DNA of 40,000 bases from Stigonema ocellatum SAG 48.90 = DSM 106950 (lineage in GTDB: Bacteria > Cyanobacteriota > Cyanobacteriia > Cyanobacteriales > Nostocaceae): positions 60,238 through 100,237 of the forward strand of contig JADQBA010000016.1 in the NCBI GenBank assembly GCA_016903675.1, given 5' to 3'. Position numbers and translations under genes: made by a program. Of this stretch, positions 2,578 through 23,165 are shown in pieces. How positions within the stretch are numbered: the first letter of the stretch is position 1; the number at the start of each line of letters is the position of its first letter. A model generated the notes under the pieces. That model had not been told where the DNA came from. It was given only the letters and a program-made list of their open reading frames with translations, and made no database searches.

Positions 2578-2967
2578 CTAATACCGTGACCCAAGTAGGG
2601 AGAGTGGAGCAATGTCAGAAAATGATCGCAATGCCCTTGGCAAGCTTGTGCACTTTCCTATGAGTTGATTCACCATCATCGCCAGTGCCACGGTACCCAA
2701 AATAGTCATTAATCCTGCGGGCATAAACTTGCGTGTTTTAGCAAGTCTAAATGCGAAGAAAATGACTAAAATAGCGGTGACGATAGATGCTACAATCAAA
2801 CCCCAGGTTTGTCCTTGGAGTTGGACAAAAGCAGCAAACACAAGTAGTAACCCGCTGATACCACCACTGATGAGCGAAACTTTGCTACTGGCATTACGGT
2901 AACCAATAATGCCACCAATAATTGCCAAGATGCCGTAGGCAAAGGCGGCAACAACACCTAAAGTCAT
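2578..2967 (-). CDS. Small integral membrane protein, TMEM14/UPF0136-like (four predicted TM helices)
   Basis: 129-aa ORF with Gly-rich hydrophobic helices: AFAYGILAIIGGIIGY, LISGGISGLLLVFAAF, GLIVASIVTAILVIFFAF and GLMTILGTVALAMMV. Confidence 0.65.
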   Translation of the reverse strand: MTLGVVAAFAYGILAIIGGIIGYRNASSKVSLISGGISGLLLVFAAFVQLQGQTWGLIVASIVTAILVIFFAFRLAKTRKFMPAGLMTILGTVALAMMVNQLIGKCTSLPRALRSFSDIAPLSLLGSRY

Positions 2968-3054
2968 TGTTAAAACCTATGTAGATTTTTATTTTGCTGC
3001 AAACGTCCGCAGACAATTTACCATAGCTATTTAGCTAGATAACCGAGTTGATTA

Positions 3055-4380
3055 ATGGATAATCAAGCGATCGCAAAGATCCAATTCCTCCAACACCAAG
3101 CAGCCTCCCTTTTACTCTACCAATCTGTCAAAGAAGGTAAAGTGGGGATCGCATTTCTTGACCTGTTGCAAGCTTTACGTTACACTGATGCCGATGCGCG
3201 GGATTGCCTCCAAGCCTACGGTAGCTACTTTCAGTCCTTGGCTGCAAGAAATCAAAACTGGGAGGAATATCTCATTACTCAAATTCTCAGATCGGATAAT
3301 CCCTTTACCCGCCTAGCTCAACAGCTAGAATTTGAGAATTTGCCAGCCTCTTTAGTCGCAGCAGCTCAGCATGATTTACAAGCATTGCAGAGCCTGTATA
3401 AATGTAGCAGTGTATCTTTGAGTGAGTGGGTGCAAGCCGTGGCTAATTTGTCCGTTTCACCAGTAGTGTGGCATGAACAGCAGGATAGGGTAGGAGTAGA
3501 GGCGCAATTCATCGCGTCTTTACAAAAGTTAGAGAATTGGGCTGATGTCGTCAAAGATTTGGCAGCTTATTATCGGCAATTTGGCATGGGTTTATTTGCA
3601 GAGTATAAAGCTTTGCGCTGGCAAGGTGGAGAGTTTATTGGCATCCCATATGCCGATCCAGTTAAATTGAACCAACTGGTGGGTTACGAGTCTCAGAGAG
3701 AGACTTTGCAGAAAAATACAGAATTTTTATTATCAGGACGGGAGGCACTTCATGTATTACTTTATGGTAGTCGTGGTTCGGGAAAATCCTCTCTAGTGAA
3801 AGGTTTATTGAATGAGTATGGCGATCGCAACTTACGCTTACTGGAAGTGGCAAAATCCGGATTGAAAGACTTACCAGAAATTGTGGAACAGTTGCGGGGA
3901 ACACCACAGAAATTTATCATCTTTGTTGATGACCTTTCCTTTGAAGAAGATGACGACGCCTTTAAAGCCCTGAAAGTGGTTTTAGAAGGCAATTTAACCG
4001 CACGACCGCAAAATGTTGTAGTGTATGCTACTTCTAATCGTCGCCACTTAATTCGAGAGTTTTTTGCCGATAGACCAGCTGCTAGGGATAACGAGGAAAT
4101 CCATGCATGGGATACTATGCAGGAGAAGCTTTCGTTTAGCGATCGCTTTGGTCTGACCTTAACTTTTGAACCCGCCGATCAAAAAACTTATTTACAAATT
4201 GTCCGGCATTTAGCAGCACAAGCTGAAATTAATATAAAGCAGGAAGACTTGGAATATCAAGCTTTGCAATGGGCAACTCGTCACAATGGTCGTTCTGGAC
4301 GAACTGCACGGCAATTTGTTGATTTCTTAAAAGCTGACTTGGCGGTTTTTGGGTTGCAAAACTATGCAGCTAACACGTAG
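3055..4380 (+). CDS. P-loop ATPase of the DUF815 type (AAA-like)
   Basis: 441-aa ORF. Walker A is LLYGSRGSGKSSLVKGLL and Walker B is FIIFVDDLSFEEDD, followed by VYATSNRRHL. The layout is typical of DUF815 ATP-binding proteins. Confidence 0.75.
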   Translation: MDNQAIAKIQFLQHQAASLLLYQSVKEGKVGIAFLDLLQALRYTDADARDCLQAYGSYFQSLAARNQNWEEYLITQILRSDNPFTRLAQQLEFENLPASLVAAAQHDLQALQSLYKCSSVSLSEWVQAVANLSVSPVVWHEQQDRVGVEAQFIASLQKLENWADVVKDLAAYYRQFGMGLFAEYKALRWQGGEFIGIPYADPVKLNQLVGYESQRETLQKNTEFLLSGREALHVLLYGSRGSGKSSLVKGLLNEYGDRNLRLLEVAKSGLKDLPEIVEQLRGTPQKFIIFVDDLSFEEDDDAFKALKVVLEGNLTARPQNVVVYATSNRRHLIREFFADRPAARDNEEIHAWDTMQEKLSFSDRFGLTLTFEPADQKTYLQIVRHLAAQAEINIKQEDLEYQALQWATRHNGRSGRTARQFVDFLKADLAVFGLQNYAANT

Positions 4381-4489
4381 TCATCATGTTCCTTGATTTA
4401 TTTATGGGGTTCCCCACCTACTCCCCTATGGGCGTATTGCAAGTAGCCCCTACTTTATTTCAAAAAATCCTTATTCTGACAACTTTGCT

Positions 4490-5776
4490 ATGCTAAAAAC
4501 AAGCAATATACAATCAGCAATGATCAGCAATCGATTGATTATAGGTACAGTTGCCTTTGGTGTGAGTTTTGGTCTTAGTCTCGTCCTTAGCTGGGATTTT
4601 AATAAAGCCTTTCTCACAGGTGTCATTACAGTACCAGCCACTTACTTAGCAGCATTATTTGTAGATAAACGGCGAAGATATCATGAAATGCTCGTTTTAG
4701 ATTCTCTCCAGAGGAGAATTAAAGAGCTTGAGGCAATGAAGTTCCGTATGGTCTCAGAAATTGATCAATTTGAGGCTCATAGCGCTTTATTATATGCAGA
4801 GTCAAGCAAACTACAAAATCAAATAGCAGAACGCCGTAGCCAAAGGGATAGCCTGAATCGAGAGTTAAGTACTTTTGTTAAAGAAAAAAATCAGTTAGAA
4901 GCAGAAATTAACCATCGGCAAACTGAAATTAAAAACCTGGACAAAAATAAAATAGAACTAAATAATTCCTGTTCGGTTCTAACAGCAGAAAAACGTCGTC
5001 TAGAGATGAATTGCAATATATCGCGTTCTGAAATAACTCAGTTGCAAACTCGCATTACGGAACTCCTACAGGAAAACCAAGAACTGGAAAGTAATTTAAT
5101 CTTACTGAATAGACTCAAACCCCAACTAGAAGAAAAATTGTACGAGCTACGAGTTAAAATTCAAGACCTAGAAGTTCAGGAAACCGAGCAAAATAAATTA
5201 CTTTTAGAGAAAAACTCACAAAGCAAAAACATAGAAGCCAACCTCAACTCCTTACAAACTAAACTAACTGAACAAGAAACACAACTAAAACAGTTACAAC
5301 AACAAATTATATTATTACAAAATGAACGCGACCAGTTGCAAAGCCAAGTTTGGGAATTACTCGAACAAATGGAAACCCTAAATTTGGAACTCATACCTCA
5401 TAATCCACAGGAAGATGATGTTGATTTATTCCCTTTTTCTGATTTACTTGACTCTCTAACCGAAAAACCAGAAAATCTACCTGAAGAATGGACTAAACTT
5501 TTAGATCTGCTACCAGGATACGAAATTCAGGTATTAAAAGCCATAATTGAGCAAGAAAATCCTAATTCTGCTTTAAAAAAAATTGCCGAACAAAACATTA
5601 CAATGCCACATTTATTAATTGATTCCATAAATGAACGTGCTAATGATACTATTGGCGAATTGATAATTGACCCCTATTCTGACCCTCAAAAAATTTATCA
5701 AGAACATATGATAAACGCAAAAAAAATGATTTCAGCATATGAAGCTACAATAGCTAAACAAACCACAGCAAAATAA
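4490..5776 (+). CDS. Membrane-anchored coiled-coil protein with a TerB-C-like C-terminal module (SngA-like candidate)
   Basis: 428-aa ORF. It has two N-terminal hydrophobic helices (LIIGTVAFGVSFGLSLVLSW and FLTGVITVPATYLAALFV). About 230 aa of Q/E/L/N-rich heptad sequence follows. The C-terminus LPEEWTKLLDLLPGYEIQVLKAII...LLIDSINERANDTIGELIIDP resembles the TerB-C pattern (INExAxDxxGDxLIE) as I remember it. Confidence 0.5.
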   Translation: MLKTSNIQSAMISNRLIIGTVAFGVSFGLSLVLSWDFNKAFLTGVITVPATYLAALFVDKRRRYHEMLVLDSLQRRIKELEAMKFRMVSEIDQFEAHSALLYAESSKLQNQIAERRSQRDSLNRELSTFVKEKNQLEAEINHRQTEIKNLDKNKIELNNSCSVLTAEKRRLEMNCNISRSEITQLQTRITELLQENQELESNLILLNRLKPQLEEKLYELRVKIQDLEVQETEQNKLLLEKNSQSKNIEANLNSLQTKLTEQETQLKQLQQQIILLQNERDQLQSQVWELLEQMETLNLELIPHNPQEDDVDLFPFSDLLDSLTEKPENLPEEWTKLLDLLPGYEIQVLKAIIEQENPNSALKKIAEQNITMPHLLIDSINERANDTIGELIIDPYSDPQKIYQEHMINAKKMISAYEATIAKQTTAK

Positions 5777-5817
5777 TTCGTACTTAAGAATCCCTAATTC
5801 GTAATAATTAACACAAC

Positions 5818-5852
5818 TACGAATTACGAATTACGAATTACGCATTACGAAT
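5818..5852. repeat. Heptamer tandem array TACGAAT x5 (one variant TACGCAT)
   Basis: tacgaat tacgaat tacgaat tacgcat tacgaat lies directly upstream of the ATPase start at 5857. The same heptamer array recurs at 26542-26576. Confidence 0.9.
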
Positions 5853-5856
5853 CAAG

Positions 5857-7182
5857 GTGACTTCCATGGCAAAGCTCAAAATCTCGAAAAAAATATCCAC
5901 TGCTTTGATAAACTCTCTGAGTGCAGGGGTAGTTCCAAGAGTCGGACTAGAACACATAGCAGTAGGTCGGGAACAAGAACTGAAAAGCCTATTACAAAAC
6001 CTTGACGATATAGCTGAAGGAGTAGCGGCGTTTCGCTTCATAATAGGTAACTATGGTTCAGGCAAAAGCTTCATTCTACAACTGATTCGCAATCATGCCA
6101 TAGAGCAAGGTTTTGTTGTAGCGGACGCTGATTTATCACCTGAACGCCGACTAGCAGGAACAAACAACGAAGGTCTAGGAACCTATCGAGAATTAATGAG
6201 CCGACTTGCCACAAAAACTCGTCCTGATGGTGGTGCTTTAGTTTCCATTCTAGAAGGATGGATTAACAAAATTCAACAAGAAGTCGCCAAAGAAACCGGA
6301 ATGCGTCCTAATGACGAGGGTTTTGATGACCAAGTTGAAGCGAAAATTAGGGAAGTCGTTCAGTATATTGAAGACTTAGTTCACGGATTTGATTTTGGTA
6401 GCGTTGTTATTGCTTATTGGCGTGGCTATCGATTAGATGATGATGCATTGAAGGCTGCTGCTTTACGGTGGCTGCGAGGAGAATTTAGCACGAAAATTGA
6501 GGCAAAAGCAGCCTTGGGAGTACGTGTTATCATTGATGACGATAGTTGGTATGACTACATCAAGCTATTAGCTAAGTTTGTGGCTGAGATTGGCTATAAA
6601 GGACTTGTGGTCTTGCTTGATGAAGCTGTGCATTTATACCAAATATCCACTACAGTGACTCGTGAAAAAAATTACAACAGACTGCTGGGAATCTTCAATG
6701 ATATCATGCAGTGCAAAGCAGAGCATCTAGGCATTGTTATAGGTGGAACAACAAAATTTTTGGAAGACCCAAATCGGGGACTTTTTACAGATGCAGCTTG
6801 GCGAAGGCGTACAAAAGAAAGCCGTTTTGTCACCCAATCTGGTGTTCAGGAATTTTTGGGACCCGTCCTCCGGCTTAACCCCCTCACTCAAGAAGAAATC
6901 CTCACGCTTTTGCAAAGATTAGCTGAGATACATGCTTTAAATTTTGCTTATAACCAAGCTTTGACAGTTAGTGAGTTGAAAGAGTTTGTGCAAGAAATTG
7001 TCAATCGCTTAGGTGCAGAAGCATTGCTCACTCCCGGCCAAATTGTGCGAGATTTTATTAGTGTGCTAAATCTTTTGTACCAAAACCCGAAAATTTCTTT
7101 TGGTGAACTCATTCATGGTACTGACTTTAAACCCACGATTGTAGGTAAAGATGGGGATGATATAGCAGAATTTAGTTTATGA
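5857..7182 (+). CDS. DUF2791 / BrxC-BrxD-type P-loop ATPase (SngB-like candidate)
   Basis: 441-aa ORF. Walker A is FIIGNYGSGKSFILQLI and Walker B is GLVVLLDEAVHL. Size and layout match the roughly 440-aa BREX-ATP-binding-domain proteins that sit between TerB-type proteins and DEAD/DEAH helicases. Confidence 0.7.
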   Translation: MTSMAKLKISKKISTALINSLSAGVVPRVGLEHIAVGREQELKSLLQNLDDIAEGVAAFRFIIGNYGSGKSFILQLIRNHAIEQGFVVADADLSPERRLAGTNNEGLGTYRELMSRLATKTRPDGGALVSILEGWINKIQQEVAKETGMRPNDEGFDDQVEAKIREVVQYIEDLVHGFDFGSVVIAYWRGYRLDDDALKAAALRWLRGEFSTKIEAKAALGVRVIIDDDSWYDYIKLLAKFVAEIGYKGLVVLLDEAVHLYQISTTVTREKNYNRLLGIFNDIMQCKAEHLGIVIGGTTKFLEDPNRGLFTDAAWRRRTKESRFVTQSGVQEFLGPVLRLNPLTQEEILTLLQRLAEIHALNFAYNQALTVSELKEFVQEIVNRLGAEALLTPGQIVRDFISVLNLLYQNPKISFGELIHGTDFKPTIVGKDGDDIAEFSL

Positions 7183-7274
7183 TTAACGAACTGAAGAAGC
7201 AAGGTGATAATTTTGGTAGATACAGCAGCAGTATAGAACCAGCCCTTTCAAGGTGAAACGTAAAAGTGAAGTTT

Positions 7275-7346
7275 TTCTTCGTGTTCTTCGCGTCTTCGTG
7301 GTTCAAAAATATTTTTAAACCGCGAAGGCACGAAGAACACGAAGAA
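7275..7346. repeat. Imperfect inverted repeat (29-nt arms) of the CTTCGTG/CACGAAG dispersed-repeat type
   Basis: ttcttcgtgttcttcgcgtcttcgtggtt (7275-7303) pairs with aaccgcgaaggcacgaagaacacgaagaa (7318-7346). The outer 16 nt are perfectly complementary. Confidence 0.8.
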
Positions 7347-7374
7347 GAAATGCCGAAAAGGGAATCTTCAGCTT

Positions 7375-7955
7375 TTGCATCAATCCCTGACCGATGCCAG
7401 TGGTACTCCTGCGGGTTCTATTCACTTCCAGGGTCGAAATATTAGCTTGAATGATGCTTCTGCTGCCCTCTTAATTAATCAAGGAAGCGGCAATTCAGGC
7501 GATATCAGCGTTAATGCTAGCGAGTCGTTAAAACTGCGGGGAGTTGGCACCGATGGATTTCCGCAAAGTCTATTGCGTGCTGATAACTTCGGTGATATTT
7601 TGGAGTTGACCCTAATTCTGGCTTAATAGAACTGCCGACAAATGTGACCGATCCATCGCAGCAGATAGCTACAGGTTGTTCTACCACTGGTAGTAGTTTT
7701 GTGGCAACGAGACGGGGTGGAGTGCCACAAAATCCAAATCAACAGGTGATTCAAGATCGCACTTGGTCTGATGTGCGCGATATCTCCCCATACCGCAAAA
7801 CACACAAAGTACAAGCACAAATACCCCAATCCCCTGAGGTTCTTGTCCAAGCCACTTCTTGGCATCGCAATGCTGACGGTAAAATTGAATTAATTGCGAC
7901 AAAATCTTCTACTCAGGTCCAACCATCGTTAACCTGTGCAGCAGTTCCCAACTAA
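7375..7955 (+). pseudogene. C-terminal remnant of a filamentous-haemagglutinin/TpsA-like beta-helix secreted protein; frameshifted and 5'-truncated
   Basis: Two ORFs lie in different frames. The first reads ...GSIHFQGRNISLNDASAALLINQGSGNSGDISVNASESLKLRG (beta-helix repeats). The second reads NSGLIELPTNVTDPSQQIATGCSTTGSSFVATRRGGVPQNP..., the conserved C-terminal box of cyanobacterial haemagglutinin-like proteins. Only about 190 aa remain of a family that is normally over 800 aa. Confidence 0.6.
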
Positions 7956-8002
7956 AGCCTAATCGCCTCAACAACAACTACCAATCCACAATATATAATC
8001 AT

Positions 8003-8075
8003 AACCGCAGATGAACACAGATAAACGCAGATAAAACAGACAATTATCTGCGTTTATCTGTGTTCATCTGCGGTT
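8003..8075. repeat. Perfect 31-bp inverted repeat with an 11-nt loop, 17 nt upstream of the helicase ATG
   Basis: aaccgcagatgaacacagataaacgcagata (8003-8033) is the exact reverse complement of tatctgcgtttatctgtgttcatctgcggtt (8045-8075). Confidence 0.9.
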
Positions 8076-8091
8076 AAAAATCCAAAATCCT

Positions 8092-10326
8092 ATGAACAAA
8101 GCCCTACACACCTTTTCTCGACTCGCCCCCTTTATCCAAGAATACATATATAATCACAACTGGACTGAATTACGACCAGTCCAAATAGAAGCTTGTCAAG
8201 CTATATTTAACACCGATGCGCACTTGCTTGTCACTGCTGGAACTGCTTCGGGGAAAACAGAAGCTGCGTTTCTGCCAATTTTGACTTTATTACACGAAAA
8301 CCCCACTTCTACCATAGGAGCATTATACATTGGTCCTATTAAAGCTTTAATTAATGACCAATTTGAACGTCTTAATGATTTACTAAAGGAAGCGGATATT
8401 CCGGTTTGTCACTGGCACGGTGATGTTTATCAAAGTCATAAAAATAAGCTTCTCAAAAACCCTAAAGGTATTCTGCAAATTACGCCGGAATCTCTAGAAA
8501 GTTTGTTGATTAACAAAAATCAAGATTTATTGCGTTTATTTGGTGATTTACGGTTTGTGGTTATTGATGAGATTCATGCGTTCATGGGTTCGGAACGGGG
8601 TTGTCAAATTCTTTGCCAATTAACACGGTTGGAGAAGGTGACGCGAATACAGCCTCGGAGGATTGGGTTGTCGGCTACTCTCGGTGATTATTCCATGGCT
8701 GAGGAGTGGTTGCGTTCTGGAAGTGATAAGTCGGTGATTATATCGAAGGTTGAGGGAGGGAAACGGCAAGTTAAACTTGCTGTGGAACATTTTTATGTTT
8801 GTCGTGATGATGGGGTTGTAAGAGAAATAAACCGCCAAGACGCAGAGGGCGCAGAGAGAAATTATGAGGATGATTTGGGTGTGAGTTTATATGATGAATA
8901 TATTTTTAATTTGAGTAAGTCTCGTAAGTGTCTTATTTTTGCTAATAATAAATCTCAAACTGAGTCTGTGATTGCGTCTTTACGTCAGATTGCTGTGGAT
9001 GAGGGATACCCGGATATTTATCATGTGCATCACGGTAGTATATCCGCACTTTTGCGACAAGCTGCTGAAGCTGCTATGCGCGAACCTAATGAGCCGGCTG
9101 TGACTGCTGCTACACTTACTTTGGAGTTAGGGGTAGATATTGGTCATTTGGAGAGGGTGATTCAGTTAGAGTCACCTATGTCTGTAGCTAGCTTTTTACA
9201 GCGCTTGGGACGTACTGGGAGGCGAGGGGAGGCTGCTGATATGCGGTTTGTTTGTGCTGAAGATGAGTTGTCAGAAGAAGCAACGCTTCCGGAGCAAATT
9301 CCTTGGCAACTTTTGCAGTGTATTGCCATTATCCAACTTTATTTAGAGGAGCGTTGGATTGAGCCGATTAAGCCTCTTAAATATCCTTTGAGTTTGCTGT
9401 ATCAGCAAACTATGAGTATTTTAGCAGCAAGTAGGGAAATTTCACCTGCTGCTCTTGCTCAGGAGGTTTTAAGTTTACCAAGTTTTGCTGCTATTACCAA
9501 GGAGGATTTGAAGATATTACTGCGTTATTTAATTGATTTAGACCATATTCAAAAAACTGAGAAGGGTACTTTGATTCTTGGTTTGGCGGGGGAAAGGGTG
9601 GTTGGAAAATTTCAGTTTTATGCTGTGTTTCCTGATAATCAGGAGTATGTGGTAAAGCAAGGGACGATGGAAATTGGCAGTATTGTTAAGTTATTGCGTG
9701 TGGGATATCAATTTGCCTTGGCTGGCAAATCTTGGGAGGTAATGGATGTCGATTTGAAAAGAAAGATTATTTTTGTTAAGCAAGTCGAGGGTAAAGCTAG
9801 TATTTATTGGCGTGGTGGTAGTGGTGCTATTCATACAAAAGTTTTGCAACGGATGCGGCGGGTGCTGTTTGAGGATACGGAGTATAGTTACTTGCAAAAG
9901 AATGCTCTGGAACGTTTGCAGGCTGTTCGTGACCTGACGCGAAGGGCTGGATTAGATCAACAAAATATTTTGCTAATAGAAAAAGATAAGTGCTGTATTT
10001 TTCCTTGGATGGGTACTGTGGGATACCGTACTTTGGAAAGATTGCTCAATTGCTTTTGTCGAGAGTCTTTGGAAATTAAAAGTATTAGTGGAATCAATCC
10101 CTATTTTTTGACAATTAAGTTACCGAAGAAGAAGTTTAAGTTTCTTTATTCGGAAATTGTTTCCTTGTGTGAGCAAAGAATTACTTCTGAGAGTTTATTA
10201 AGTAGTTCGGAACCGTTGGAAAGACAAAAATATGATGAGTTTATCCCTGATAACCTTTTACAGAAAGCATTTGCGAGCGATTATTTAGATATGTTGGAAG
10301 TGAGGCAACAGGTGGCGATATGGTAG
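8092..10326 (+). CDS. DEAD/DEAH-box (Lhr-like, SF2) helicase (SngC-like candidate)
   Basis: 744-aa ORF. Motif I is TAGTASGKTEAAFLPIL, motif II VVIDEIHAF, motif III SATLG and motif VI LQRLGRTGRRG. A long C-terminal extension is present, as in Lhr-type helicases. Confidence 0.85.
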   Translation: MNKALHTFSRLAPFIQEYIYNHNWTELRPVQIEACQAIFNTDAHLLVTAGTASGKTEAAFLPILTLLHENPTSTIGALYIGPIKALINDQFERLNDLLKEADIPVCHWHGDVYQSHKNKLLKNPKGILQITPESLESLLINKNQDLLRLFGDLRFVVIDEIHAFMGSERGCQILCQLTRLEKVTRIQPRRIGLSATLGDYSMAEEWLRSGSDKSVIISKVEGGKRQVKLAVEHFYVCRDDGVVREINRQDAEGAERNYEDDLGVSLYDEYIFNLSKSRKCLIFANNKSQTESVIASLRQIAVDEGYPDIYHVHHGSISALLRQAAEAAMREPNEPAVTAATLTLELGVDIGHLERVIQLESPMSVASFLQRLGRTGRRGEAADMRFVCAEDELSEEATLPEQIPWQLLQCIAIIQLYLEERWIEPIKPLKYPLSLLYQQTMSILAASREISPAALAQEVLSLPSFAAITKEDLKILLRYLIDLDHIQKTEKGTLILGLAGERVVGKFQFYAVFPDNQEYVVKQGTMEIGSIVKLLRVGYQFALAGKSWEVMDVDLKRKIIFVKQVEGKASIYWRGGSGAIHTKVLQRMRRVLFEDTEYSYLQKNALERLQAVRDLTRRAGLDQQNILLIEKDKCCIFPWMGTVGYRTLERLLNCFCRESLEIKSISGINPYFLTIKLPKKKFKFLYSEIVSLCEQRITSESLLSSSEPLERQKYDEFIPDNLLQKAFASDYLDMLEVRQQVAIW

Positions 10327-10334
10327 GATTTTTT

Positions 10335-10446
10335 GGCATTGCTGAATCAAGGTATGAATTTACCTCACGCAAAGGCGCAAAGGCGCAAAGAGAAAAAGTT
10401 TTTAAATACCCCATTTTTTCATTTCATACTTCAATTCAGCAACGCC
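10335..10446. repeat. Hairpin-type small dispersed repeat: 24-nt imperfect inverted arms flanking a GCGCAAAG octamer x3
   Basis: ggcattgctgaatcaaggtatgaa (10335-10358) pairs with ttcatacttcaattcagcaacgcc (10423-10446). The internal sequence is cgcaaaggcgcaaaggcgcaaag. The architecture matches 34640-34719. Confidence 0.7.
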
Positions 10447-10511
10447 GATTTTTTTACATCCTCACGACAGGCGATCGCCTAAAAAGCAACAATCATTAAG
10501 GAGCAAAAAGG

Positions 10512-10754
10512 ATGAGCAGTTTTGCAAGCTATGCTGGCTTTTCAGTAGGCGAAAAAGTAAAGTATTTGGTTGGAACTCGGACGAATCTAGTGGCAACCAT
10601 AGGCAATATCGAGTCTCATGCACTGAGCAATAAATCCTTCGTTTTTAAGCTGGTTTTTGATGACGAATCACTCCCGCTGCACTTGAAGGAACAACCCGTT
10701 ACCCTTCCCCAAAATCTTGATTGGTTTGAGAAAGTTTGTGAAGTTGAATTTTAA
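10512..10754 (+). CDS. Hypothetical protein (80 aa)
   Basis: The ORF is preceded by aaggag 8 nt upstream (10498-10503). I recognise no motif. Confidence 0.4.
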   Translation: MSSFASYAGFSVGEKVKYLVGTRTNLVATIGNIESHALSNKSFVFKLVFDDESLPLHLKEQPVTLPQNLDWFEKVCEVEF

Positions 10755-15114: not shown

Positions 15115-16641
15115 TTGCGCTTCGGGCAGGAACGAAACGAGGAGCTTTACCGTCAGCACCTCGAAGTCGTTGAAGAACTTTATAAATGCAAGCTCAGGGA
15201 TTTGGTCAAACCCTGGAATTCCGAATTTTCCTCGCAGATGAAGCTAATTCGCCTGCGCGACCAAATCCGAGATTTTTTCGGACGCGATGAAGTTAACTTT
15301 GTAGCGATTGACGGCACCTGCAAGGCAGAGGAGACTACCCAATTTTTGTTGTTTTACGCGGGAGCCTATGGAGCCAGGGGGTCTCTCGACCTCAAGGGCA
15401 TACCCCCAGCGTTACGATATCATAAGTGGTCGCTGGAACAAGATGTGTCAGTTGTGGCGCAGGTGCCAATCCCCTATGCGGAATTAGAGGATGTGCTGGA
15501 AGAAGAACGCGACCCTTTTGCTGTTAGCGATCTAGAAAAGACGAACCTTGCAGGGTTGCATACTCTATTGATGCAATTATCGGAAGTATATTTGGCTTAC
15601 GATACCGTAACCAGTAGTCGCACAGACGCGCCAGACTTCGTACTGTTGGACCAGTCAATCTCCTCTGCTATGGCATCGAACATGGTGCAGCCTTCTGCTG
15701 TGCGGATGATTGGTAGTCCTTGGAGAGAGCGCCAGCTGACAGAGGCTGATGCCACAATTGCCTTAGCTCATCCCTTTAATTCAGATTTAGGTATTCCCAC
15801 CGTTAAGCGGTTTCGTCAGTATACAGGACTTTTAGCTCGAATGCAGCAAGGTGGAGGCACTGTAGACCTGGAACAGGTTGCTGGCGAGGAAGGTTTGGAA
15901 TTGGACGACCTGAACTCCGGTGTTGCCTATTTAACTAAGCGAAATTTAGCGCAATTATCATCAGATGGTAAGCGTCTGACTTGGATGGGACCGCACGATA
16001 TCGAAGCTTCTTGGGCATATACCAAGGCTGTTTTTCGACAAATTTGCGAAAAACTGTTCGTGGAGAAAGACCCCACAGCTTTGATGTATACCGTAGAAAC
16101 AGATGAAATGCGGCGACGCCACTGGATGAGTCCCCCCGATATTAAGTTTTTAATTGGGGTGGGTTTGCGATCGCTCATTGAGGAGTGCTGGAAACGCAAT
16201 GTATTGCTGGTAGGGTTGGTTAAAGATTCGTCTTCGGCGTATTTCACCCGCAACTATTTGGGGGTAATGCGATTCCTTGACGTGCTTCCGGAGTTGAAAA
16301 GCTTTTCTCGCCCCTTACCATCAACTGACCGCATTGCTTTAGAAATTTTACCGCTAATTAACGATGAACTAGAATCTCCTTGGTCAACGGTTGAGTTTGA
16401 CGGCGTATTTATGACGATGTTTGTCCGCCAAGAACCCGACGGTACTTGTGACCTCAGTGGAGTTAGGGGAGATATCCTCGCGCCCGAATGCCTGACGGCA
16501 CGTTCCTTGGCACAGTTTTACTTAAATCGAAAGCCATCGGGACCGTTGATGGGTCATGTGATTTTCGTCGAGCGCTTGCTGCCGTTTATAAGCAAATCTT
16601 GGCTGCTGGGAAGGTGCGTGTCTATCAGCGTGTTGATGTAA
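15115..16641 (+). CDS. NurA-like nuclease (TTG start inferred; the C-terminal 30-50 aa are doubtful)
   Basis: 508-aa ORF with NurA-type motifs FVAIDGTC, FVLLDQSISS, LVGLVKDSSSAYF and PSTDRIALEIL. The frame opens at 15100 and the first possible start is the TTG at 15115. Confidence 0.6.
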   Translation: MRFGQERNEELYRQHLEVVEELYKCKLRDLVKPWNSEFSSQMKLIRLRDQIRDFFGRDEVNFVAIDGTCKAEETTQFLLFYAGAYGARGSLDLKGIPPALRYHKWSLEQDVSVVAQVPIPYAELEDVLEEERDPFAVSDLEKTNLAGLHTLLMQLSEVYLAYDTVTSSRTDAPDFVLLDQSISSAMASNMVQPSAVRMIGSPWRERQLTEADATIALAHPFNSDLGIPTVKRFRQYTGLLARMQQGGGTVDLEQVAGEEGLELDDLNSGVAYLTKRNLAQLSSDGKRLTWMGPHDIEASWAYTKAVFRQICEKLFVEKDPTALMYTVETDEMRRRHWMSPPDIKFLIGVGLRSLIEECWKRNVLLVGLVKDSSSAYFTRNYLGVMRFLDVLPELKSFSRPLPSTDRIALEILPLINDELESPWSTVEFDGVFMTMFVRQEPDGTCDLSGVRGDILAPECLTARSLAQFYLNRKPSGPLMGHVIFVERLLPFISKSWLLGRCVSISVLM

Positions 16642-17483
16642 GAAGTAGTTTAGGAAGCTTTATCAGGAATTTTTGGAGTGAAGTCAATACTTCTAACTTT
16701 GCAGCAAAGGATTTGCAGTCAGTTAATAATTTAATCAATGAGTTAAGTGGAATTGAACAAACATTATTAGAGGCTGATGTTGAAAGTATTTTGACCCAAA
16801 TTAGAGATACTGCTCAAAATTTAGGTGCTAGAGCAAAGAAGGCTCTAAACGATTTACATGATACTCTAAGTAGTGCATGGGAAAATTCCCGTCGTAATCC
16901 TCCTCTTCCAGAAGAAAGTCGAGTCACAGTTCCTGAGTTAGTGTCTCAGATAAACGACTCTAGAAAAGATAACCTTTTTGTGATTCAGTCCCATGACCCT
17001 AATGAACTACGCTCTTTTAGCCGCTGGCTTGGTAACGAAGCTTATGAACAGCGTAGGCGAACAGGGCAAATTAGTCCTTTAGTCAGTTTTATATTTGATG
17101 AAGCTGATGAATTTATTCCTCAAGACGCTTCAGGAACTTATAGAGATTCAACCGAAATTGCAATGACTTTAGCCCGTCGGGGACGAAAATTTGGTTTGGG
17201 AATTGGTATTGCAACACAAAGAATTACCTACCTTGATACCAGCATCATAGCTCAACCCCATACATATTTTGTTTCTAAACTACCACGCAAATCTGACCAA
17301 GACCGAATTCGTGACGCTTTTGGTTTGAGTGATGAAATGTTTCGTCAGACAGTAAAGTTTAAAAAAGGTGATTGGCTCTTGGTCAGTTATGATGCGACAG
17401 GTTTAGAAGCAGTGCCGTTGCCAATTCATACTCCAAACGCGAATGAGAGGCTGGCGAATTTTCTACAAACTTATTCCGATTAA
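16488..17483 (+). pseudogene. HerA/FtsK-type ATPase, C-terminal half only (no Walker A found)
   Basis: Walker B is FIFDEADEFIPQD, followed by ARRGRKFGLGIGIATQRITYLD and FVSKLPRKSDQDRI, typical of the HerA C-terminal half. The frame is closed by a TAG at 16464-16466. Neither other frame encodes a GxxGxGKS motif upstream. The ORF overlaps the NurA ORF by 154 nt. Confidence 0.55.
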
Positions 17484-21162: not shown

Positions 21163-22260
21163 ATGTTTGAACTTGTCATAAAAGGTGTTCCCGTACACCG
21201 TGGTCCTAAGCGCGAACATATTACTTATGTTGCAAGTACTACTTTTGGTGACATTGCTCGACTATTAAACGATGGTCACCTCTATATCCCCAACATCCCA
21301 GACTTGCCGGACTTTGCCCAACGTAAACTTAACCAGACACGAGTCAAGGCGATCGCCCGGTACATTCTGGAGACTTATCAGGATGGGACTACATTTTTCC
21401 CGCCAATTTGTGTTAATGCTCAACCATCACCAACTTACAAAGATGGTAGCCTCCATCTTCCTTACCAGTCACTTGGATTGCGCTTAACTGATGGTCAACA
21501 TAGATGTTTTGGGATTCGTCAAGCACTCCAAGATATCCAGACGCAACCGTCAGAGTATACCATCATCCTTTCACAATTAGAAATTGGCGTGTTAATATAT
21601 GCTGGACTGTCTTTAGAGGAGGAGCGTCAAGCTTTCCGCGACCAAAACCTGTTAGTCCAACGACCAAGCGTGTCGCTATCCCATGCTTTTGACAGGCGAT
21701 CGCCCACAGTTTTGATTGCCAAAAATTTACTAGAGCGAGTTCCTCATTTTCGCGATAATGTAGAAATGTTTGAAAGCGGATTGGGTCAACACAATCCCAA
21801 GTTGCTAACGCTTGCCACTTTGGTGACTGCAACCCAACATATGTTTTCACATTTGCAGTCAAAAGAGAATTTAGAGCCATTAGTTGATTGGGCAACGGCA
21901 TTTTGGACTGCAACAGCGAGTGTGTTACTCGATGAGCCTTGGACGATAAAAAGTAAAGAGGAACGTGCAGCTCAAAGACAGGATTCATTAGTAGTGAGCG
22001 CTCCTATATTTCAGGCATTGGGGATGTTGGCTCACGACTTATATCAAGAGGGTGTTCCAGCAGAAAATTTTGTCCAGTGGTTAAGCAGACTGCAAGAAAT
22101 AGACTGGCGGCGCTCTAATCAACTATGGCAAGAGCGAGGTATCACACAAGTTAGAAGTCAGGGAGAAGCAATTATTCCAAATACTAAGACAACTATTAGG
22201 GCTTGTCATAAGGTACTAAGAGAGTTGATTGGTGTTGCACCCGTTGGTGGTGTGATTTGA
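21163..22260 (+). CDS. DGQHR-domain protein (DndB/DpdB-like, ParB-fold)
   Basis: 365-aa ORF with the literal motif LRLTDGQHRCFGI. It is preceded by ataggagaag (SD-like) 4 nt upstream. Confidence 0.8.
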   Translation: MFELVIKGVPVHRGPKREHITYVASTTFGDIARLLNDGHLYIPNIPDLPDFAQRKLNQTRVKAIARYILETYQDGTTFFPPICVNAQPSPTYKDGSLHLPYQSLGLRLTDGQHRCFGIRQALQDIQTQPSEYTIILSQLEIGVLIYAGLSLEEERQAFRDQNLLVQRPSVSLSHAFDRRSPTVLIAKNLLERVPHFRDNVEMFESGLGQHNPKLLTLATLVTATQHMFSHLQSKENLEPLVDWATAFWTATASVLLDEPWTIKSKEERAAQRQDSLVVSAPIFQALGMLAHDLYQEGVPAENFVQWLSRLQEIDWRRSNQLWQERGITQVRSQGEAIIPNTKTTIRACHKVLRELIGVAPVGGVI

Positions 22261-23096
22261 GCAAATTCCAATCCTAAAACTTCTTGAAAGACATTGCGGT
22301 TACTAAACTTGCTGTCATAGCGCTCGTTCCACCACAACCAACCAGTAGAATCTGCCCAAACATTGTGCTTTTTGAGTACTTCTATACGGGTTAATGCCAG
22401 TCCTCCTAAGACAAACTCCGGTCGGCTCCAAGCCAATAGTTCATCCAACTCTTCTATAGACAAGCCAAATTTAAAGCCCGTGGTTCTAGTTTTATCAACT
22501 TTCAATAGCCCTCCCAGTGCAATGTACTCATAGCCAATGTCCCGATAAACACTAATCAAGGGAGCCAGGAAGCTTTTAGGTAATTCGTAATGTGGAGGAA
22601 AACAATCTAACTGGGGAACTACCTTTTGATGCCAATTGTAGATTGCATACCCAACTTGAACTACGCCAATCAAAGCATAGGTTCTTTGTTTATGCCAATA
22701 TTCTTCCCAAGTTAATCTGGCTAAATATAAAGACAGTAATGGCTCACCAAAAATGTCTTGCGTGAAAACAAAATCAGGACAAAATTGGTCACAACGTTCG
22801 AGATATTCTTTAACCTTCTGTCGTAAATGCTGTTCAGATGCCAAACGTAACTCACGCATCCACCGATGATTACGGTATTCACAATACTGTTGGTAGTACC
22901 AAGGGAAATCTTGATTTGTAAAAACACCACTGTCTATAAAAAAGGGCTTTTCCAAATCACGAATACTCTGAAGGAGCTTATTGTAACATGAAACAGGTGC
23001 AAGAACACCATAATTTCCTTCTATTTTTTTTAATCTTTTTAATAAACCTAACCAGTCCATAGAAAAAACTGGTAAAAATTTATTATTTAAATTCAT
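22206..23096 (-). CDS. Divergent TGT-fold (DpdA-like) protein lacking the Zn-binding motif
   Basis: 296-aa ORF. FFIDSGVF, YEYIALGGLL, FVLGGLALTRIE and WADSTGW parallel GDCGAFGY, YDYIAIGGLA, LFGVGRIE and SFDSAGP in the neighbouring 711-aa protein. No CxCxxC...H motif is present. Confidence 0.45.
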   Translation of the reverse strand: MNLNNKFLPVFSMDWLGLLKRLKKIEGNYGVLAPVSCYNKLLQSIRDLEKPFFIDSGVFTNQDFPWYYQQYCEYRNHRWMRELRLASEQHLRQKVKEYLERCDQFCPDFVFTQDIFGEPLLSLYLARLTWEEYWHKQRTYALIGVVQVGYAIYNWHQKVVPQLDCFPPHYELPKSFLAPLISVYRDIGYEYIALGGLLKVDKTRTTGFKFGLSIEELDELLAWSRPEFVLGGLALTRIEVLKKHNVWADSTGWLWWNERYDSKFSNRNVFQEVLGLEFAQITPPTGATPINSLSTL

Positions 23097-23165
23097 ATTT
23101 TTAATATTTAATTTCTTATTATAAGATTAACATTATTCTGGATGATAATCCTCTAAGTTTTCTGT

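What the first reader, a model, noticed from the sequence alone, without database searches (positions are those of the whole stretch)
4490..10326. Shango-like three-gene set with an atypical TerB component, split by a 0.9-kb insertion
Seen in sequence:
- The order is a TM/coiled-coil protein with a TerB-C-like tail, then a DUF2791/BrxCD-type ATPase, then a DEAD/DEAH helicase.
- The first protein shows no recognisable TerB-N region. Instead it has two TM helices and about 230 aa of coiled coil.
- The helicase is separated from the ATPase by 909 bp (7183-8091) of pseudogene and hairpin repeats.

Established knowledge, as I recall it: a TerB-domain protein plus ATPase plus helicase is the composition of the Shango defence system (SngABC). 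Earlier comparative genomics of Ter systems predicted this association.

Inference: this is a membrane-tethered Shango variant. Whether the helicase is still co-transcribed is unclear.
Basis: partly seen in the sequence, partly recalled or inferred. Interest (0 to 1): 0.7.

Follow-up and report, generated by a model that had tools for sequence, protein, structure and literature searches.

The report
Shango-related SepT locus of Stigonema
This is the Stigonema copy of a gene cluster found in every heterocyst-forming cyanobacterium examined: its membrane coiled-coil protein is the known septal protein SepT, and its partner genes are close relatives of the ATPase and helicase of the Shango anti-phage system, a link I found reported nowhere.

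Summary
Genes 4490-5776, 5857-7182 and 8092-10326 encode a 2-TM/coiled-coil/TerB_C protein, a SngB-type ATPase and a SngC-type DExH helicase. ATPase and helicase are 909 bp apart, and that spacer holds a haemagglutinin-gene fragment between two long palindromes.

The "atypical SngA" is the ortholog of SepT (All2460) of Anabaena PCC 7120 (56% identity, 2e-150), a characterised septal and divisome protein. The upstream DUF815 ATPase (All2461) and the SngB-like ATPase (All2459, co-precipitated with SepT) form its published synteny block.

The cluster is inherited vertically across Nostocales. SngB is 84-92% identical in 80 loci, the flanks are conserved, and dN/dS is 0.07-0.36. This does not look like a mobile defence island.

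A compact four-gene form, with sngB and sngC overlapping by 4 bp, exists in another cyanobacterial contig. In Nostocales the sngB-sngC junction has been invaded or broken repeatedly, yet the helicase stays intact.

SepT shares only a roughly 75-residue acidic winged-helix-like tail with canonical SngA. I infer this tail docks the ATPase. The SepT paper mentions neither Shango, phage nor a helicase. I class this as a new variant of a known kind; whether it acts in defence or in the septum is open.

The parts
3055..4380 (+). DUF815-family AAA ATPase (441 aa), ortholog of Anabaena All2461. Walker A GSRGSGKS, Walker B IIFVDD. It is the first gene of the conserved four-gene set.
   Evidence: Pfam DUF815 1e-96. 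Found upstream of the SepT gene on the same strand in 76 of 80 Nostocales loci, median 78% identity. Also present in the compact operon of L092, which has different flanks. The all2461-1 primer of the SepT paper encodes RFGLTL, which is present in this protein, and maps into its orthologs.
4490..5776 (+). It is an inner-membrane-anchored coiled-coil protein with a TerB_C tail.
   Evidence: BLASTP 56% identity over 394 aa, 2e-150, to All2460 (WP_010996616.1, taken from Data Set S1 of PMC10653889). Pfam TerB_C 1.3e-15. PADLOC SngA 9e-14, covering only profile positions 230-526 of 528.
4535..4663 (+). N-terminal transmembrane hairpin (residues 16-34 and 40-58), followed by DKRRRYHE. Both termini are predicted to be cytoplasmic.
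   Evidence: Hydropathy 2.1 and 1.9 over 19-residue windows. Near-invariant in 21 homologs (AFxVSFGLSL...W, Y52, F57, D59). AF2 helices 9-31 and 37 onward. The same topology was reported for All2460, where deleting the first 52 aa delocalises the protein.
4664..5374 (+). Coiled-coil stalk of about 237 residues (59-295), with an invariant RLKPQLEE motif at residues 208-215.
   Evidence: AF2 predicts a single helix with pLDDT above 90 over most of it. Only compositional hits to SMC/Rad50/JetC coiled coils. Conservation.
5483..5773 (+). TerB_C core: an acidic winged-helix-like tail (residues 332-428) behind a roughly 35-residue disordered linker (296-331). It is the only part shared with canonical SngA.
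   Evidence: 36% identity over residues 321-394 with the Paenibacillus SngA tail, 3e-12. Tail-only AF2 model pLDDT 84, pTM 0.75. The Foldseek PDB top 50 are almost all LysR-type wHTH DNA-binding domains, with a few MarR-type wHTH regulators; E about 0.02, TM 0.5-0.56. Net charge -7 in the winged-helix part; pI 4.9 for the whole tail.
5857..7182 (+). SngB-type (BrxC/BrxD-family) AAA ATPase, ortholog of Anabaena All2459. The true start is probably ATG 5866. Walker A GNYGSGKS, Walker B VVLLDEA.
   Evidence: PADLOC SngB 584 bits against BrxD 185 bits. Pfam PF10923 3.9e-167. NCBIfam BREX_BrxD 185 bits, below its cut-off of 350. 84-92% identical in 80 Nostocales loci. Primer all2459-1 maps 139 nt into the orthologs in 51 loci. 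All2459 (442 aa) co-precipitated with SepT-GFP.
7183..8091 (+). Lineage-specific 909-bp insertion in the ancestrally tight sngB-sngC junction.
   Evidence: Orthologous junctions measure a 4-bp overlap (L092), 26 bp (L031) and 66-135 bp (L017, L030, L033, L036, L064, L067). Apart from two short matches to the palindromes, the spacer finds nothing in the other 80 loci, including the Stigonema MAGs.
7272..7349 (.). Long palindrome 1 (39-nt arms, 87% complementary).
   Evidence: RNA fold -50 kcal/mol, z -10.4. Arms resemble a 30-nt sequence in Calothrix locus L032. No Rfam family reaches threshold.
7375..7955 (+). Remnant of a filamentous-haemagglutinin / S-layer-family gene, split over two reading frames (7375-7626 and 7644-7955).
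   Evidence: Fragment 2 has 26 homologs, best 1.3e-40 at 74% identity. All are short (65-161 aa) and named S-layer family, filamentous hemagglutinin or large exoprotein. Two carry PF05860. ORFs and frames.
8002..8076 (.). Long palindrome 2 (33-nt perfect arms, 9-nt loop), ending 15 nt before the sngC start codon.
   Evidence: -56 kcal/mol, z -15.2. Single copy in the window.
8092..10326 (+). SngC-type Lhr-like DExH helicase (744 aa), intact. Motif I GTASGKT, motif II DEIH, motif III SAT, motif VI QRLGRTGRRG.
   Evidence: PADLOC SngC 827 bits against BrxHI 450 bits. Pfam DEAD, Helicase_C and WH_Lhr. 100% identical to a Stigonema ocellatum SAG 48.90 protein and 72-85% identical to the other 119 listed relatives, all named ones from Nostocales. 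dN/dS 0.13-0.19 against four orthologs.

Best explanation
**What it is.** The region is the Stigonema ocellatum copy of the sepT locus of heterocyst-forming cyanobacteria. It is a vertically inherited four-gene module: DUF815 ATPase, SepT, SngB-type ATPase and SngC-type helicase. The module is homologous to the Shango system, but the TerB_N/TerB part of SngA is replaced by a two-helix membrane anchor and a coiled coil of about 237 residues.

**How it most likely works.** The steps are marked as shown or inferred.
1. SepT sits in the cytoplasmic membrane with both termini inside and self-associates. This is shown for Anabaena All2460 and predicted here.
2. SepT is recruited to the cell periphery, the divisome and the mature septum through contacts with MreB, RodA, FtsW, SepF, ZipN and SepJ. 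This is shown in Anabaena and inferred here.
3. Its stalk, about 35 nm long if fully extended, and a flexible linker present an acidic winged-helix TerB_C tail. That tail is the only element conserved between SepT and canonical SngA. I infer that it docks the SngB-type ATPase. The only experimental support is a weak co-precipitation of All2459.
4. The ATPase, and through it the Lhr-like helicase, would then act on nucleic acid at the membrane or septum (inferred).

**The spacer.** The 909-bp spacer is a secondary insertion of a gene fragment flanked by palindromes. It separates sngC from sngB but has not inactivated it. Because the same junction is broken in many relatives that keep the helicase, sngC most likely has its own promoter, so co-transcription with sngB is probably not required.
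For: **Identity with SepT.**
- 56% identity, 2e-150, to All2460.
- The same architecture is reported for All2460: TMDs at 12-50, coiled coils, TerB-C.
- The synteny block all2461-all2460-all2459 was published, and its primers map onto the DUF815, SepT and SngB orthologs.

**Shango homology.**
- PADLOC SngB 4.5e-176 and SngC 3.4e-249, both full length and best-scoring.
- 54% and 48% identity to the SngB and SngC of a canonical TerB_N-SngA operon.
- TerB_C tail homology at 3e-12.

**One functional unit.**
- L092 carries a compact DUF815 / SepT-like / sngB / sngC cluster with a 4-bp sngB-sngC overlap and unrelated flanks.
- All2459 co-precipitated with SepT-GFP.

**Vertical inheritance and selection.**
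- 76-80 of 80 loci keep DUF815-SepT-SngB in order.
- Tmemb_14 lies upstream in 75 loci and APH in 37.
- dN/dS is 0.07-0.36 for all four genes.
- sepT is kept in the genome-reduced symbionts Richelia and Nostoc azollae.

**Spacer as a secondary insertion.**

**Helicase retained when unlinked.** In Mojavia it lies roughly 19-21 kb from SngB on the opposite strand, and it is on a separate contig in several MAGs.
Against: - No experiment has been done on Stigonema. The function is transferred from Anabaena by orthology.
- The All2459 co-IP rests on 3 peptides at 12% coverage, in a long list of co-precipitating proteins.
- The SepT paper reports no link to any helicase.
- SepT-like proteins occur as stand-alone genes in other cyanobacteria (L086-L089, L094, L095). 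In Richelia the adjacent ATPase genes are gone. SepT can therefore act without neighbouring partners.
- The role of the tail as an ATPase dock is pure inference. No complex prediction was possible with these tools.
- The mechanism of Shango itself is unknown in the literature I could search.
- The promoter and terminator scans were uninformative: counts were within shuffle expectation.
Confidence: 0.7

Rival explanations
1. It is a working anti-phage or anti-plasmid Shango variant. SepT would be the membrane-resident sensor that replaces TerB_N/TerB, and on infection it would activate the SngB ATPase and the SngC helicase. The septal and peptidoglycan phenotypes of sepT mutants would be side effects. 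This is partly compatible with the best explanation; the difference lies in the primary function.
For: - SngB and SngC are best-hit members of families taken from experimentally validated Shango systems.
- Millman et al. proposed membrane surveillance for TerB-containing systems, and the TerB protein of Bunzi has TM helices.
- sngC borders a roughly 23-kb variable island with TA modules, a GajB-like helicase, DndB and DpdA-like genes.
- Relatives carry GmrSD, HEPN or Mrr genes at the same place.
- sepT mutants are viable, so the gene is not essential for growth in the laboratory.
Against: - The cluster was found, with the same flanking genes, in every Nostocales locus examined, and SngB is 84-92% identical. 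That is not the patchy, horizontally moving pattern of canonical Shango.
- sepT is retained in genome-reduced symbionts.
- SepT localises to septa and the divisome and interacts with cell-wall synthesis proteins.
- No phage experiment exists for any cyanobacterial member.
Confidence: 0.25
2. The genes are neighbours by descent only. SepT is a cytoskeletal and septal protein that works without the ATPases and the helicase, and the resemblance to a Shango operon is a relic with no present functional coupling.
For: - Stand-alone SepT-like genes exist in other cyanobacteria, and Richelia has lost the adjacent ATPases.
- The helicase is not adjacent in 56 of 69 loci with enough downstream sequence.
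- Insertions occur even between sepT and sngB (L093).
Against: - The same trio of TerB_C protein, SngB and SngC recurs in unrelated phyla as a tight operon.
- The compact four-gene form in L092 has overlapping genes.
- All2459 co-precipitated with SepT, and the three Anabaena genes are co-induced about twofold after nitrogen step-down.
- All four genes are under purifying selection.
Confidence: 0.1
3. The system is decaying in this genome. The 909-bp insertion uncoupled and silenced the helicase, so the set is a remnant.
For: - The spacer contains a pseudogene fragment and two very stable hairpins, one ending 15 nt before the sngC start codon.
- Canonical operons couple sngB and sngC by a 4-bp overlap.
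Against: - sngC is full length with all helicase motifs and has dN/dS 0.13-0.19.
- SngB, SepT and DUF815 are intact.
- Other lineages carry insertions of 0.6-4.7 kb at the same junction, or have the helicase moved elsewhere, and still keep it at 72-86% identity.
Confidence: 0.04

Closest known systems
SepT (All2460) and its synteny block all2461-all2460-all2459 in Anabaena sp. PCC 7120 (Velazquez-Suarez, Springstein et al., mBio 2023, PMC10653889)
   Same: - Orthologous protein: 56% identity over the full length.
- Same two N-terminal TM helices, coiled coil and TerB-C tail.
- Same flanking P-loop NTPase genes, confirmed by primer mapping.
- Same taxonomic group, the heterocyst-forming Nostocales.
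   Different: - Here, and in Stigonema, Scytonema, Tolypothrix, Fischerella and Cylindrospermum, an Lhr-like helicase follows the block. The paper describes a three-gene block and never mentions a helicase, Shango or phage.
- Nothing has been tested in Stigonema.
- The window additionally has a 909-bp insertion before the helicase.
Shango (SngABC) anti-phage system (Millman et al. 2022; Johnson et al. 2022/2023). Canonical examples read here: Paenibacillus plasmid L084 and Klebsiella plasmid L085.
   Same: - SngB- and SngC-family proteins, full-length and best PADLOC hits.
- Gene order TerB_C protein, then ATPase, then helicase.
- A homologous TerB_C tail.
   Different: - SngA here lacks TerB_N and TerB and instead has 2 TM helices plus a coiled coil.
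- There is an extra DUF815 ATPase gene.
- The locus is vertically inherited and chromosomal, rather than carried on plasmids or in hotspots.
- sngB and sngC do not overlap here (909 bp apart, against a 4-bp overlap).
- No defence phenotype has been tested.
BREX BrxD ATPase and BrxHI helicase
   Same: Same Pfam family for the ATPase (PF10923). Second-best PADLOC hits: BrxD 185 bits and BrxHI 450 bits.
   Different: - The scores are far below those for SngB and SngC.
- The NCBIfam BREX_BrxD equivalog scores 185 bits, below its cut-off of 350.
- No BREX-named PADLOC hit turned up among the genes I scanned.
Lhr-core / ligase-associated DExH helicases
   Same: DEAD + Helicase_C + WH_Lhr domain order. 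JGI names the relatives 'Lhr-like helicase'.
   Different: It falls below the equivalog cut-offs (DEXH_lig_assoc 231 bits against 850). There is no ligase neighbourhood.
Other membrane-linked TerB defence proteins (Bunzi BnzA; Dionysus DinB)
   Same: The idea of TerB-family proteins working at the membrane.
   Different: Those proteins carry the TerB domain proper. SepT has only TerB_C. Their partner genes are different.

Membership tests
Shango (SngABC) | SngB-family ATPase | tested here: met
   PADLOC SngB 4.5e-176, residues 4-439 on profile positions 1-437 of 439. The next hit, BrxD, scores 5e-55. 54% identity to the SngB of a canonical operon.
Shango (SngABC) | SngC-family DEAD/DEAH helicase | tested here: met
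   PADLOC SngC 3.4e-249, residues 7-738 on profile positions 5-714 of 720. 48% identity to Paenibacillus SngC.
Shango (SngABC) | SngA with a TerB N-terminal domain (with or without TerB) | tested here: not met
   No TerB_N or TerB hit at E<0.1. The PADLOC SngA match covers only profile positions 230-526 of 528. Canonical SngAs hit TerB_N at 4e-38 and 2e-47.
Shango (SngABC) | SngA C-terminal TerB_C domain | tested here: met
   Pfam TerB_C 58.3 bits, above the 26.3 cut-off. 36% identity, 3e-12, to the Paenibacillus SngA tail.
Shango (SngABC) | Three adjacent, co-oriented genes forming one operon | tested here: inconclusive
   The genes are co-oriented and in the canonical order, but sngB and sngC are 909 bp apart. 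Canonical operons overlap by 4 bp, as does the cyanobacterial L092. The signal scans did not decide co-transcription.
Shango (SngABC) | Anti-phage activity | not testable with these tools
   Shown only for the E. coli and P. aeruginosa systems.
Shango (SngABC) | Patchy, mobile distribution (defence islands, plasmids). This is typical of the family, not strictly defining. | tested here: not met
   Conserved position and flanks in 75-80 of 80 Nostocales loci, with SngB 84-92% identical. Canonical Shango, by contrast, was found on 687 plasmid records.
SepT (All2460) family | Full-length sequence similarity to All2460 | tested here: met
   56% identity, 78% positives, 2e-150 over 394 aa.
SepT (All2460) family | Two N-terminal TM helices, coiled-coil body, TerB-C tail, cytoplasmic C-terminus | tested here: met
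   The basic cluster DKRRRYHE follows TM2. The features defining the family are described.
SepT (All2460) family | Synteny with two P-loop NTPase genes (all2461 upstream, all2459 downstream) | tested here: met
   DUF815 upstream and SngB-type downstream. The paper's primers map to these orthologs.
SepT (All2460) family | Host is a heterocyst-forming filamentous cyanobacterium | tested here: met
   The helicase is 100% identical to a protein of Stigonema ocellatum SAG 48.90. That species belongs to Nostocales, Stigonemataceae.
SepT (All2460) family | Septal/divisome localisation and an effect on peptidoglycan growth and nanopores | not testable with these tools
   Known only for Anabaena.
BREX (BrxD) | BrxD equivalog score | tested here: not met
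   NCBIfam BREX_BrxD scores 184.8 bits, below its cut-off of 350.

The most novel reading that the evidence does not exclude
A Shango-type immune module (TerB_C adaptor, SngB ATPase, SngC helicase, plus a DUF815 ATPase) was fixed in the ancestor of heterocyst-forming cyanobacteria and rewired onto a septum- and divisome-localised membrane coiled-coil protein. Two readings follow.

- It is a domesticated defence system that now serves septal peptidoglycan and nanopore biogenesis, or DNA handling at the closing septum, in a multicellular bacterium.
- It is an immune system stationed at the cell-cell junctions of the filament, and SepT's 'cytoskeletal' phenotypes come from losing that complex.

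In both readings the TerB_C winged-helix tail would be the general SngA-to-SngB docking module. That would give the first mechanistic handle on Shango.
Probability: 0.25. Interest if true: 0.8.

Novelty: new variant of a known kind. Interest (0 to 1): 0.55.

Why it matters
Two literatures describe the same genes without knowing of each other.

- **For cyanobacterial cell biology.** SepT's unexplained 'P-loop NTPase' neighbours turn out to be a Shango-type ATPase and a DUF815 ATPase. Ancestrally a helicase came with them. This predicts partners and activities that can be tested in Anabaena genetics.
- **For phage-defence research.** Shango has no known mechanism. A natural variant in which everything but the TerB_C tail of SngA has been swapped points to that tail as the conserved interface with SngB. 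It also points to the N-terminal part as an exchangeable sensor or localisation module.
- **For evolution.** This would be a possible case of a defence module becoming a fixed, vertically inherited part of a lineage's cell biology.

If none of this holds, the locus is simply the ordinary sepT region of one more Nostocales genome with a junk insertion in it.

Tried and rejected
**Searches that led nowhere**
- Pfam and NCBIfam scans of the two spacer ORFs found nothing. One call failed because of stop codons. The identity came only from the large protein search.
- PDB sequence searches found no solved relative of SngB or of the tail.
- Anantharaman et al. 2012, where TerB-N and TerB-C were defined, is not held. 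What I say about that paper rests on citations and on my memory.
- Looking up the contig of the 100%-identical helicase failed because it is not on record.
- The promoter and terminator scan of 2900-10700 was within shuffle expectation. It gives no answer on co-transcription.
- Rfam gave only sub-threshold eukaryotic miRNA-precursor look-alikes for the two palindromes. They are generic long hairpins.

**Readings I considered and rejected**
- *A BREX fragment.* The BrxD equivalog is below its cut-off, and the SngB and SngC models score two to three times higher.
- *An SMC/Rad50/JetC relative.* The hits are confined to the coiled coil and there is no ATPase head.
- *A DNA-binding wHTH tail.* The fold resembles LysR-type DNA-binding domains, but the domain is acidic, with net charge -7 in the winged-helix part. 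Protein docking or cation binding is more plausible.
- *DUF815 as a mere synteny passenger, like APH and Tmemb_14.* It also sits in the compact L092 operon, which lacks those flanks.

Full report
**1. What is in the sequence.**
The window carries four co-oriented ORFs on the + strand: 3055-4380, 4490-5776, 5857-7182 and 8092-10326.

- The second (428 aa) scores above the Pfam gathering threshold for TerB_C only: 58.3 bits over residues 256-407. TerB_N and TerB are absent. Its PADLOC SngA match covers only the C-terminal 56% of that profile.
- The third is a full-length PF10923/BrxC_BrxD ATPase. Its best PADLOC model is SngB (584 bits, against 185 for BrxD).
- The fourth is a DEAD/Helicase_C/WH_Lhr protein. 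Its best model is SngC (827 bits, against 450 for BrxHI).

Walker and helicase motifs are intact in all three NTPases (read).

**2. Shape of the 428-aa protein.**
Hydropathy finds two segments, 16-34 and 40-58, followed by DKRRRYHE. AlphaFold2 with a 21-sequence alignment gives helices 9-31 and 37-295, a disordered stretch at 296-331 and a helical tail at 332-425.

The tail modelled alone has pLDDT 84 and pTM 0.75. It has a three-helix, beta-hairpin, long-helix layout. Its best PDB matches are almost all winged-helix DNA-binding domains of LysR-type regulators, with a few MarR-type ones. Significance is modest: E about 0.02, TM 0.5-0.56. The winged-helix part has a net charge of -7, so I read it as a protein-docking or cation-binding module, not a DNA binder.

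**3. Comparison with canonical Shango.**
A tblastn search of SngB against plasmids found 687 records, mostly Klebsiella and Salmonella conjugative plasmids. Two were read in detail.

- Paenibacillus L084 and Klebsiella L085 both carry 'TerB N-terminal domain-containing protein', then ATP-binding protein, then DEAD/DEAH helicase. sngB and sngC overlap by 4 bp.
- Their SngAs have TerB_N (4e-38 and 2e-47) plus TerB_C, and one also has TerB.
- The window proteins are 54% (SngB) and 48% (SngC) identical to the Paenibacillus ones.
- The 428-aa protein aligns with Paenibacillus SngA only over residues 321-394 (36%, 3e-12).

So the ATPase and helicase are true members of the Shango families. The first protein shares only the tail.

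**4. The first protein is SepT.**
[quoted passage not shown] That protein has:

[quoted passage not shown] - two-hybrid interactions with itself, MreB, RodA, FtsW, SepF, ZipN and SepJ;
- co-precipitation of All2459;
- a conserved synteny block all2459-all2460-all2461 in which both neighbours are 'P-loop NTPases';
- viable mutants with altered cell size, peptidoglycan incorporation and septal nanopore arrays.

The All2460 sequence from the paper's Data Set S1 is 56% identical to the window protein over 394 residues (2e-150).

The paper's primers settle the identity of the neighbours. Primer all2459-1 encodes DDIAEG and maps 139 nt into the SngB orthologs of 51 loci. Primer all2461-1 encodes RFGLTL and maps into DUF815 orthologs. 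Primer all2460-2 encodes ANITMP in the tail. Hence All2461 is the DUF815 ATPase and All2459 is the SngB-type ATPase.

The paper contains no occurrence of 'Shango', 'phage' or 'helicase'. Only one other held paper mentions All2460, and it reports that SepT is retained in the eroded genome of Nostoc azollae. Searches for Shango together with cyanobacteria, and for SngA/SngB/SngC, found nothing connecting the two.

**5. Distribution and evolution.**
A scan of one genome per species with SngB returned 306 relatives. The best 80 are almost all named Nostocales.

| Protein | Loci with the gene | Median identity |
|---|---|---|
| SngB | 80 | 85% (range 84-92%) |
| DUF815 | 76 | 78% |
| SepT | 77 | 62% |

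- The divergently transcribed Tmemb_14 gene is conserved upstream in 75 loci and the APH-kinase gene in 37. The locus is therefore inherited vertically at a fixed chromosomal site.
- dN/dS against four orthologous loci is 0.07-0.11 for SngB, 0.11-0.19 for DUF815, 0.13-0.19 for SngC and 0.22-0.36 for SepT.
- The helicase lies within the fetched flank in only 15 of 80 loci, or 13 of the 69 that have at least 5 kb of downstream sequence.
- Helicase orthologs of 72-85% identity nevertheless exist in Nostoc, Anabaena, Nodularia and others.
- In Mojavia the helicase is roughly 19-21 kb from SngB on the opposite strand, still next to its own downstream neighbours. In Cylindrospermum PCC 7417 the full APH / Tmemb_14 / DUF815 / SepT / SngB / helicase row is intact.

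A search of 1.84 billion cluster representatives with the tail alone gave only 268 clusters at E<=0.001. The nearest, 300-590 aa long, mostly have two N-terminal hydrophobic segments plus a coiled coil. Proteins of about 1,200 aa are TerB_N+TerB_C types.

Genomic contexts of distant members fall into three kinds:

- L092 has a compact DUF815 / SepT-like / sngB / sngC row with a 4-bp sngB-sngC overlap and unrelated flanks.
- L093 has two small genes inserted between sepT and sngB.
- L086-L089, L094 and L095 have stand-alone SepT-like genes. Richelia intracellularis keeps sepT beside APH, with no trace of DUF815 or SngB in the 17-kb stretch fetched around it.

My reading, which is an inference, is that a compact four-gene operon is ancestral. 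It was fixed in Nostocales and has since been loosening at its 3' end.

**6. The 909-bp spacer.**
Its layout, from 5' to 3', is as follows:

| Element | Length or position |
|---|---|
| Unique sequence | 89 nt |
| Palindrome 1 | 7272-7349 |
| Gap | 25 nt |
| Two out-of-frame ORF fragments | 7375-7955 |
| Gap | 46 nt |
| Palindrome 2 | 8002-8076 |
| Gap before the sngC ATG | 15 nt |

- The second fragment matches 26 short Nostocales ORFs named S-layer family, filamentous hemagglutinin or large exoprotein (best 1.3e-40).
- Apart from short matches to the palindromes in L032 and L033, the spacer has no counterpart in the other 80 loci, including the two closest Stigonema MAGs. Those MAGs instead carry histidine-kinase fragments in spacers of 585-697 bp.
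- Other lineages have two whole genes (L010, L044) or an opposite-strand 546-aa gene (L039, L072) at the same junction.
- Scytonema, Tolypothrix and Fischerella have 26-135 bp there.

The junction is thus a recurrent insertion and breakage point, and the helicase survives each time. This argues that it does not depend on read-through from sngB. Whether it is still co-transcribed here cannot be decided from sequence.

**7. Mechanism.**
- *Shown in Anabaena only:* membrane anchoring, self-interaction, septal and divisome localisation, contacts with cell-wall synthesis proteins, weak co-precipitation of the SngB ortholog, and the mutant phenotypes.
- *Shown here:* orthology, homology of the partners to Shango, the tail as the only shared SngA element, the compact ancestral-type operon, and purifying selection.
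- *Inferred:* the tail docks SngB, SepT thereby positions an ATPase/helicase machine at the membrane or septum, and that machine acts on nucleic acid there.

Whether the output is defence or cell biology is open. The distribution argues against a conventional mobile defence system. Homology, and the defence-rich variable island that starts right after sngC, keep the defence reading alive.

**8. Verdict.**
It misses that the protein is the known SepT, that a fourth gene belongs to the set, and that the set is a lineage-wide, vertically inherited feature.
- I class it as a new variant of a known kind.
- Interest is moderate. The window itself is an ordinary member of a conserved locus, but the SepT-Shango connection appears unreported and makes both problems more testable.

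Noticed in passing
window 10327-33751: The interval between sngC and a conserved Metallophos gene (33752-34636) is about 23 kb here. It is only about 3.1-3.3 kb in a Stigonema MAG and in Scytonema/Tolypothrix loci. It is filled with variable, defence-like genes: a PIN toxin pair, HNH, SocA/Panacea with an NsnC-like partner, a HerA-like fragment, PD-(D/E)XK with a UvrD/GajB-like helicase, DndB, a DpdA-like protein and a 1,524-aa WD40 protein. Relatives carry GmrSD/HEPN or Mrr-ParA genes at the same spot. It looks like a chromosomal integration hotspot bordered by core genes.
   Followed up: partly
window 21163-25301: A DndB-family gene (21163-22260, +) faces a 711-aa protein (23166-25301, -). 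That protein combines a DpdC-like/DUF6884 N-terminus with a DpdA/TGT-like C-terminus (PADLOC DpdA 1.9e-126). It may be a fused 7-deazaguanine DNA-modification enzyme.
   Followed up: no
window 15115-17483: Two overlapping + strand ORFs (15115-16641 and 16488-17483). The second matches only the C-terminal part of a HerA model (5e-46). This is probably a frameshifted or mis-split HerA-type ATPase gene.
   Followed up: no
L003 8326-8911, L004 5290-5987, L010 8326-12526, L044 8326-13030, L039 8323-10295, L072 8323-10432: The sngB-sngC junction has been hit independently in other Nostocales. There are histidine-kinase gene fragments in two Stigonema MAGs, a sensor-kinase plus response-regulator pair in two genomes, and an opposite-strand 546-aa gene in two Tolypothrix/Spirirestis MAGs.
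   Followed up: partly
L092 1869-8198: A metagenomic cyanobacterial contig carries the tightest version of the set: DUF815, a 465-aa TM/coiled-coil/TerB_C protein, SngB and SngC. Gaps are 58-62 bp and sngB-sngC overlap by 4 bp. The flanks are unrelated to the Nostocales locus. It is a good candidate for heterologous testing.
   Followed up: partly
L090 5213-9485 (Richelia intracellularis HH01): This genome-reduced diatom symbiont keeps the SepT gene next to APH. tblastn at E<=1e-3 finds no trace of DUF815 or SngB in the 17-kb stretch fetched around it. About 1.5 kb with only a 60-aa ORF lies where Tmemb_14 and DUF815 should be.
   Followed up: partly
window 5111-5134 (SepT residues 208-215): An invariant RLKPQLEE motif, with a proline, sits in the middle of the predicted continuous coiled-coil helix in all 21 aligned homologs. 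A second invariant patch, EKRRLE, lies at residues 167-172. These could be a hinge or partner-binding sites.
   Followed up: no
window 4490-5776: The large protein collection holds the helicase of this genome at 100% identity. Its best match to this genome's SepT is only 79%, so the SepT gene may not have been called, or may have been called differently, in the public annotation of this assembly.
   Followed up: no
window 7272-7349 and L032 14208-14238: The arms of palindrome 1 (CTTCGTG...CGTGGTT) recur as a 30-nt match of 90-93% in a Calothrix anomala locus. This suggests a dispersed palindromic repeat family in Nostocales. Genome-wide copy number could not be checked.
   Followed up: no
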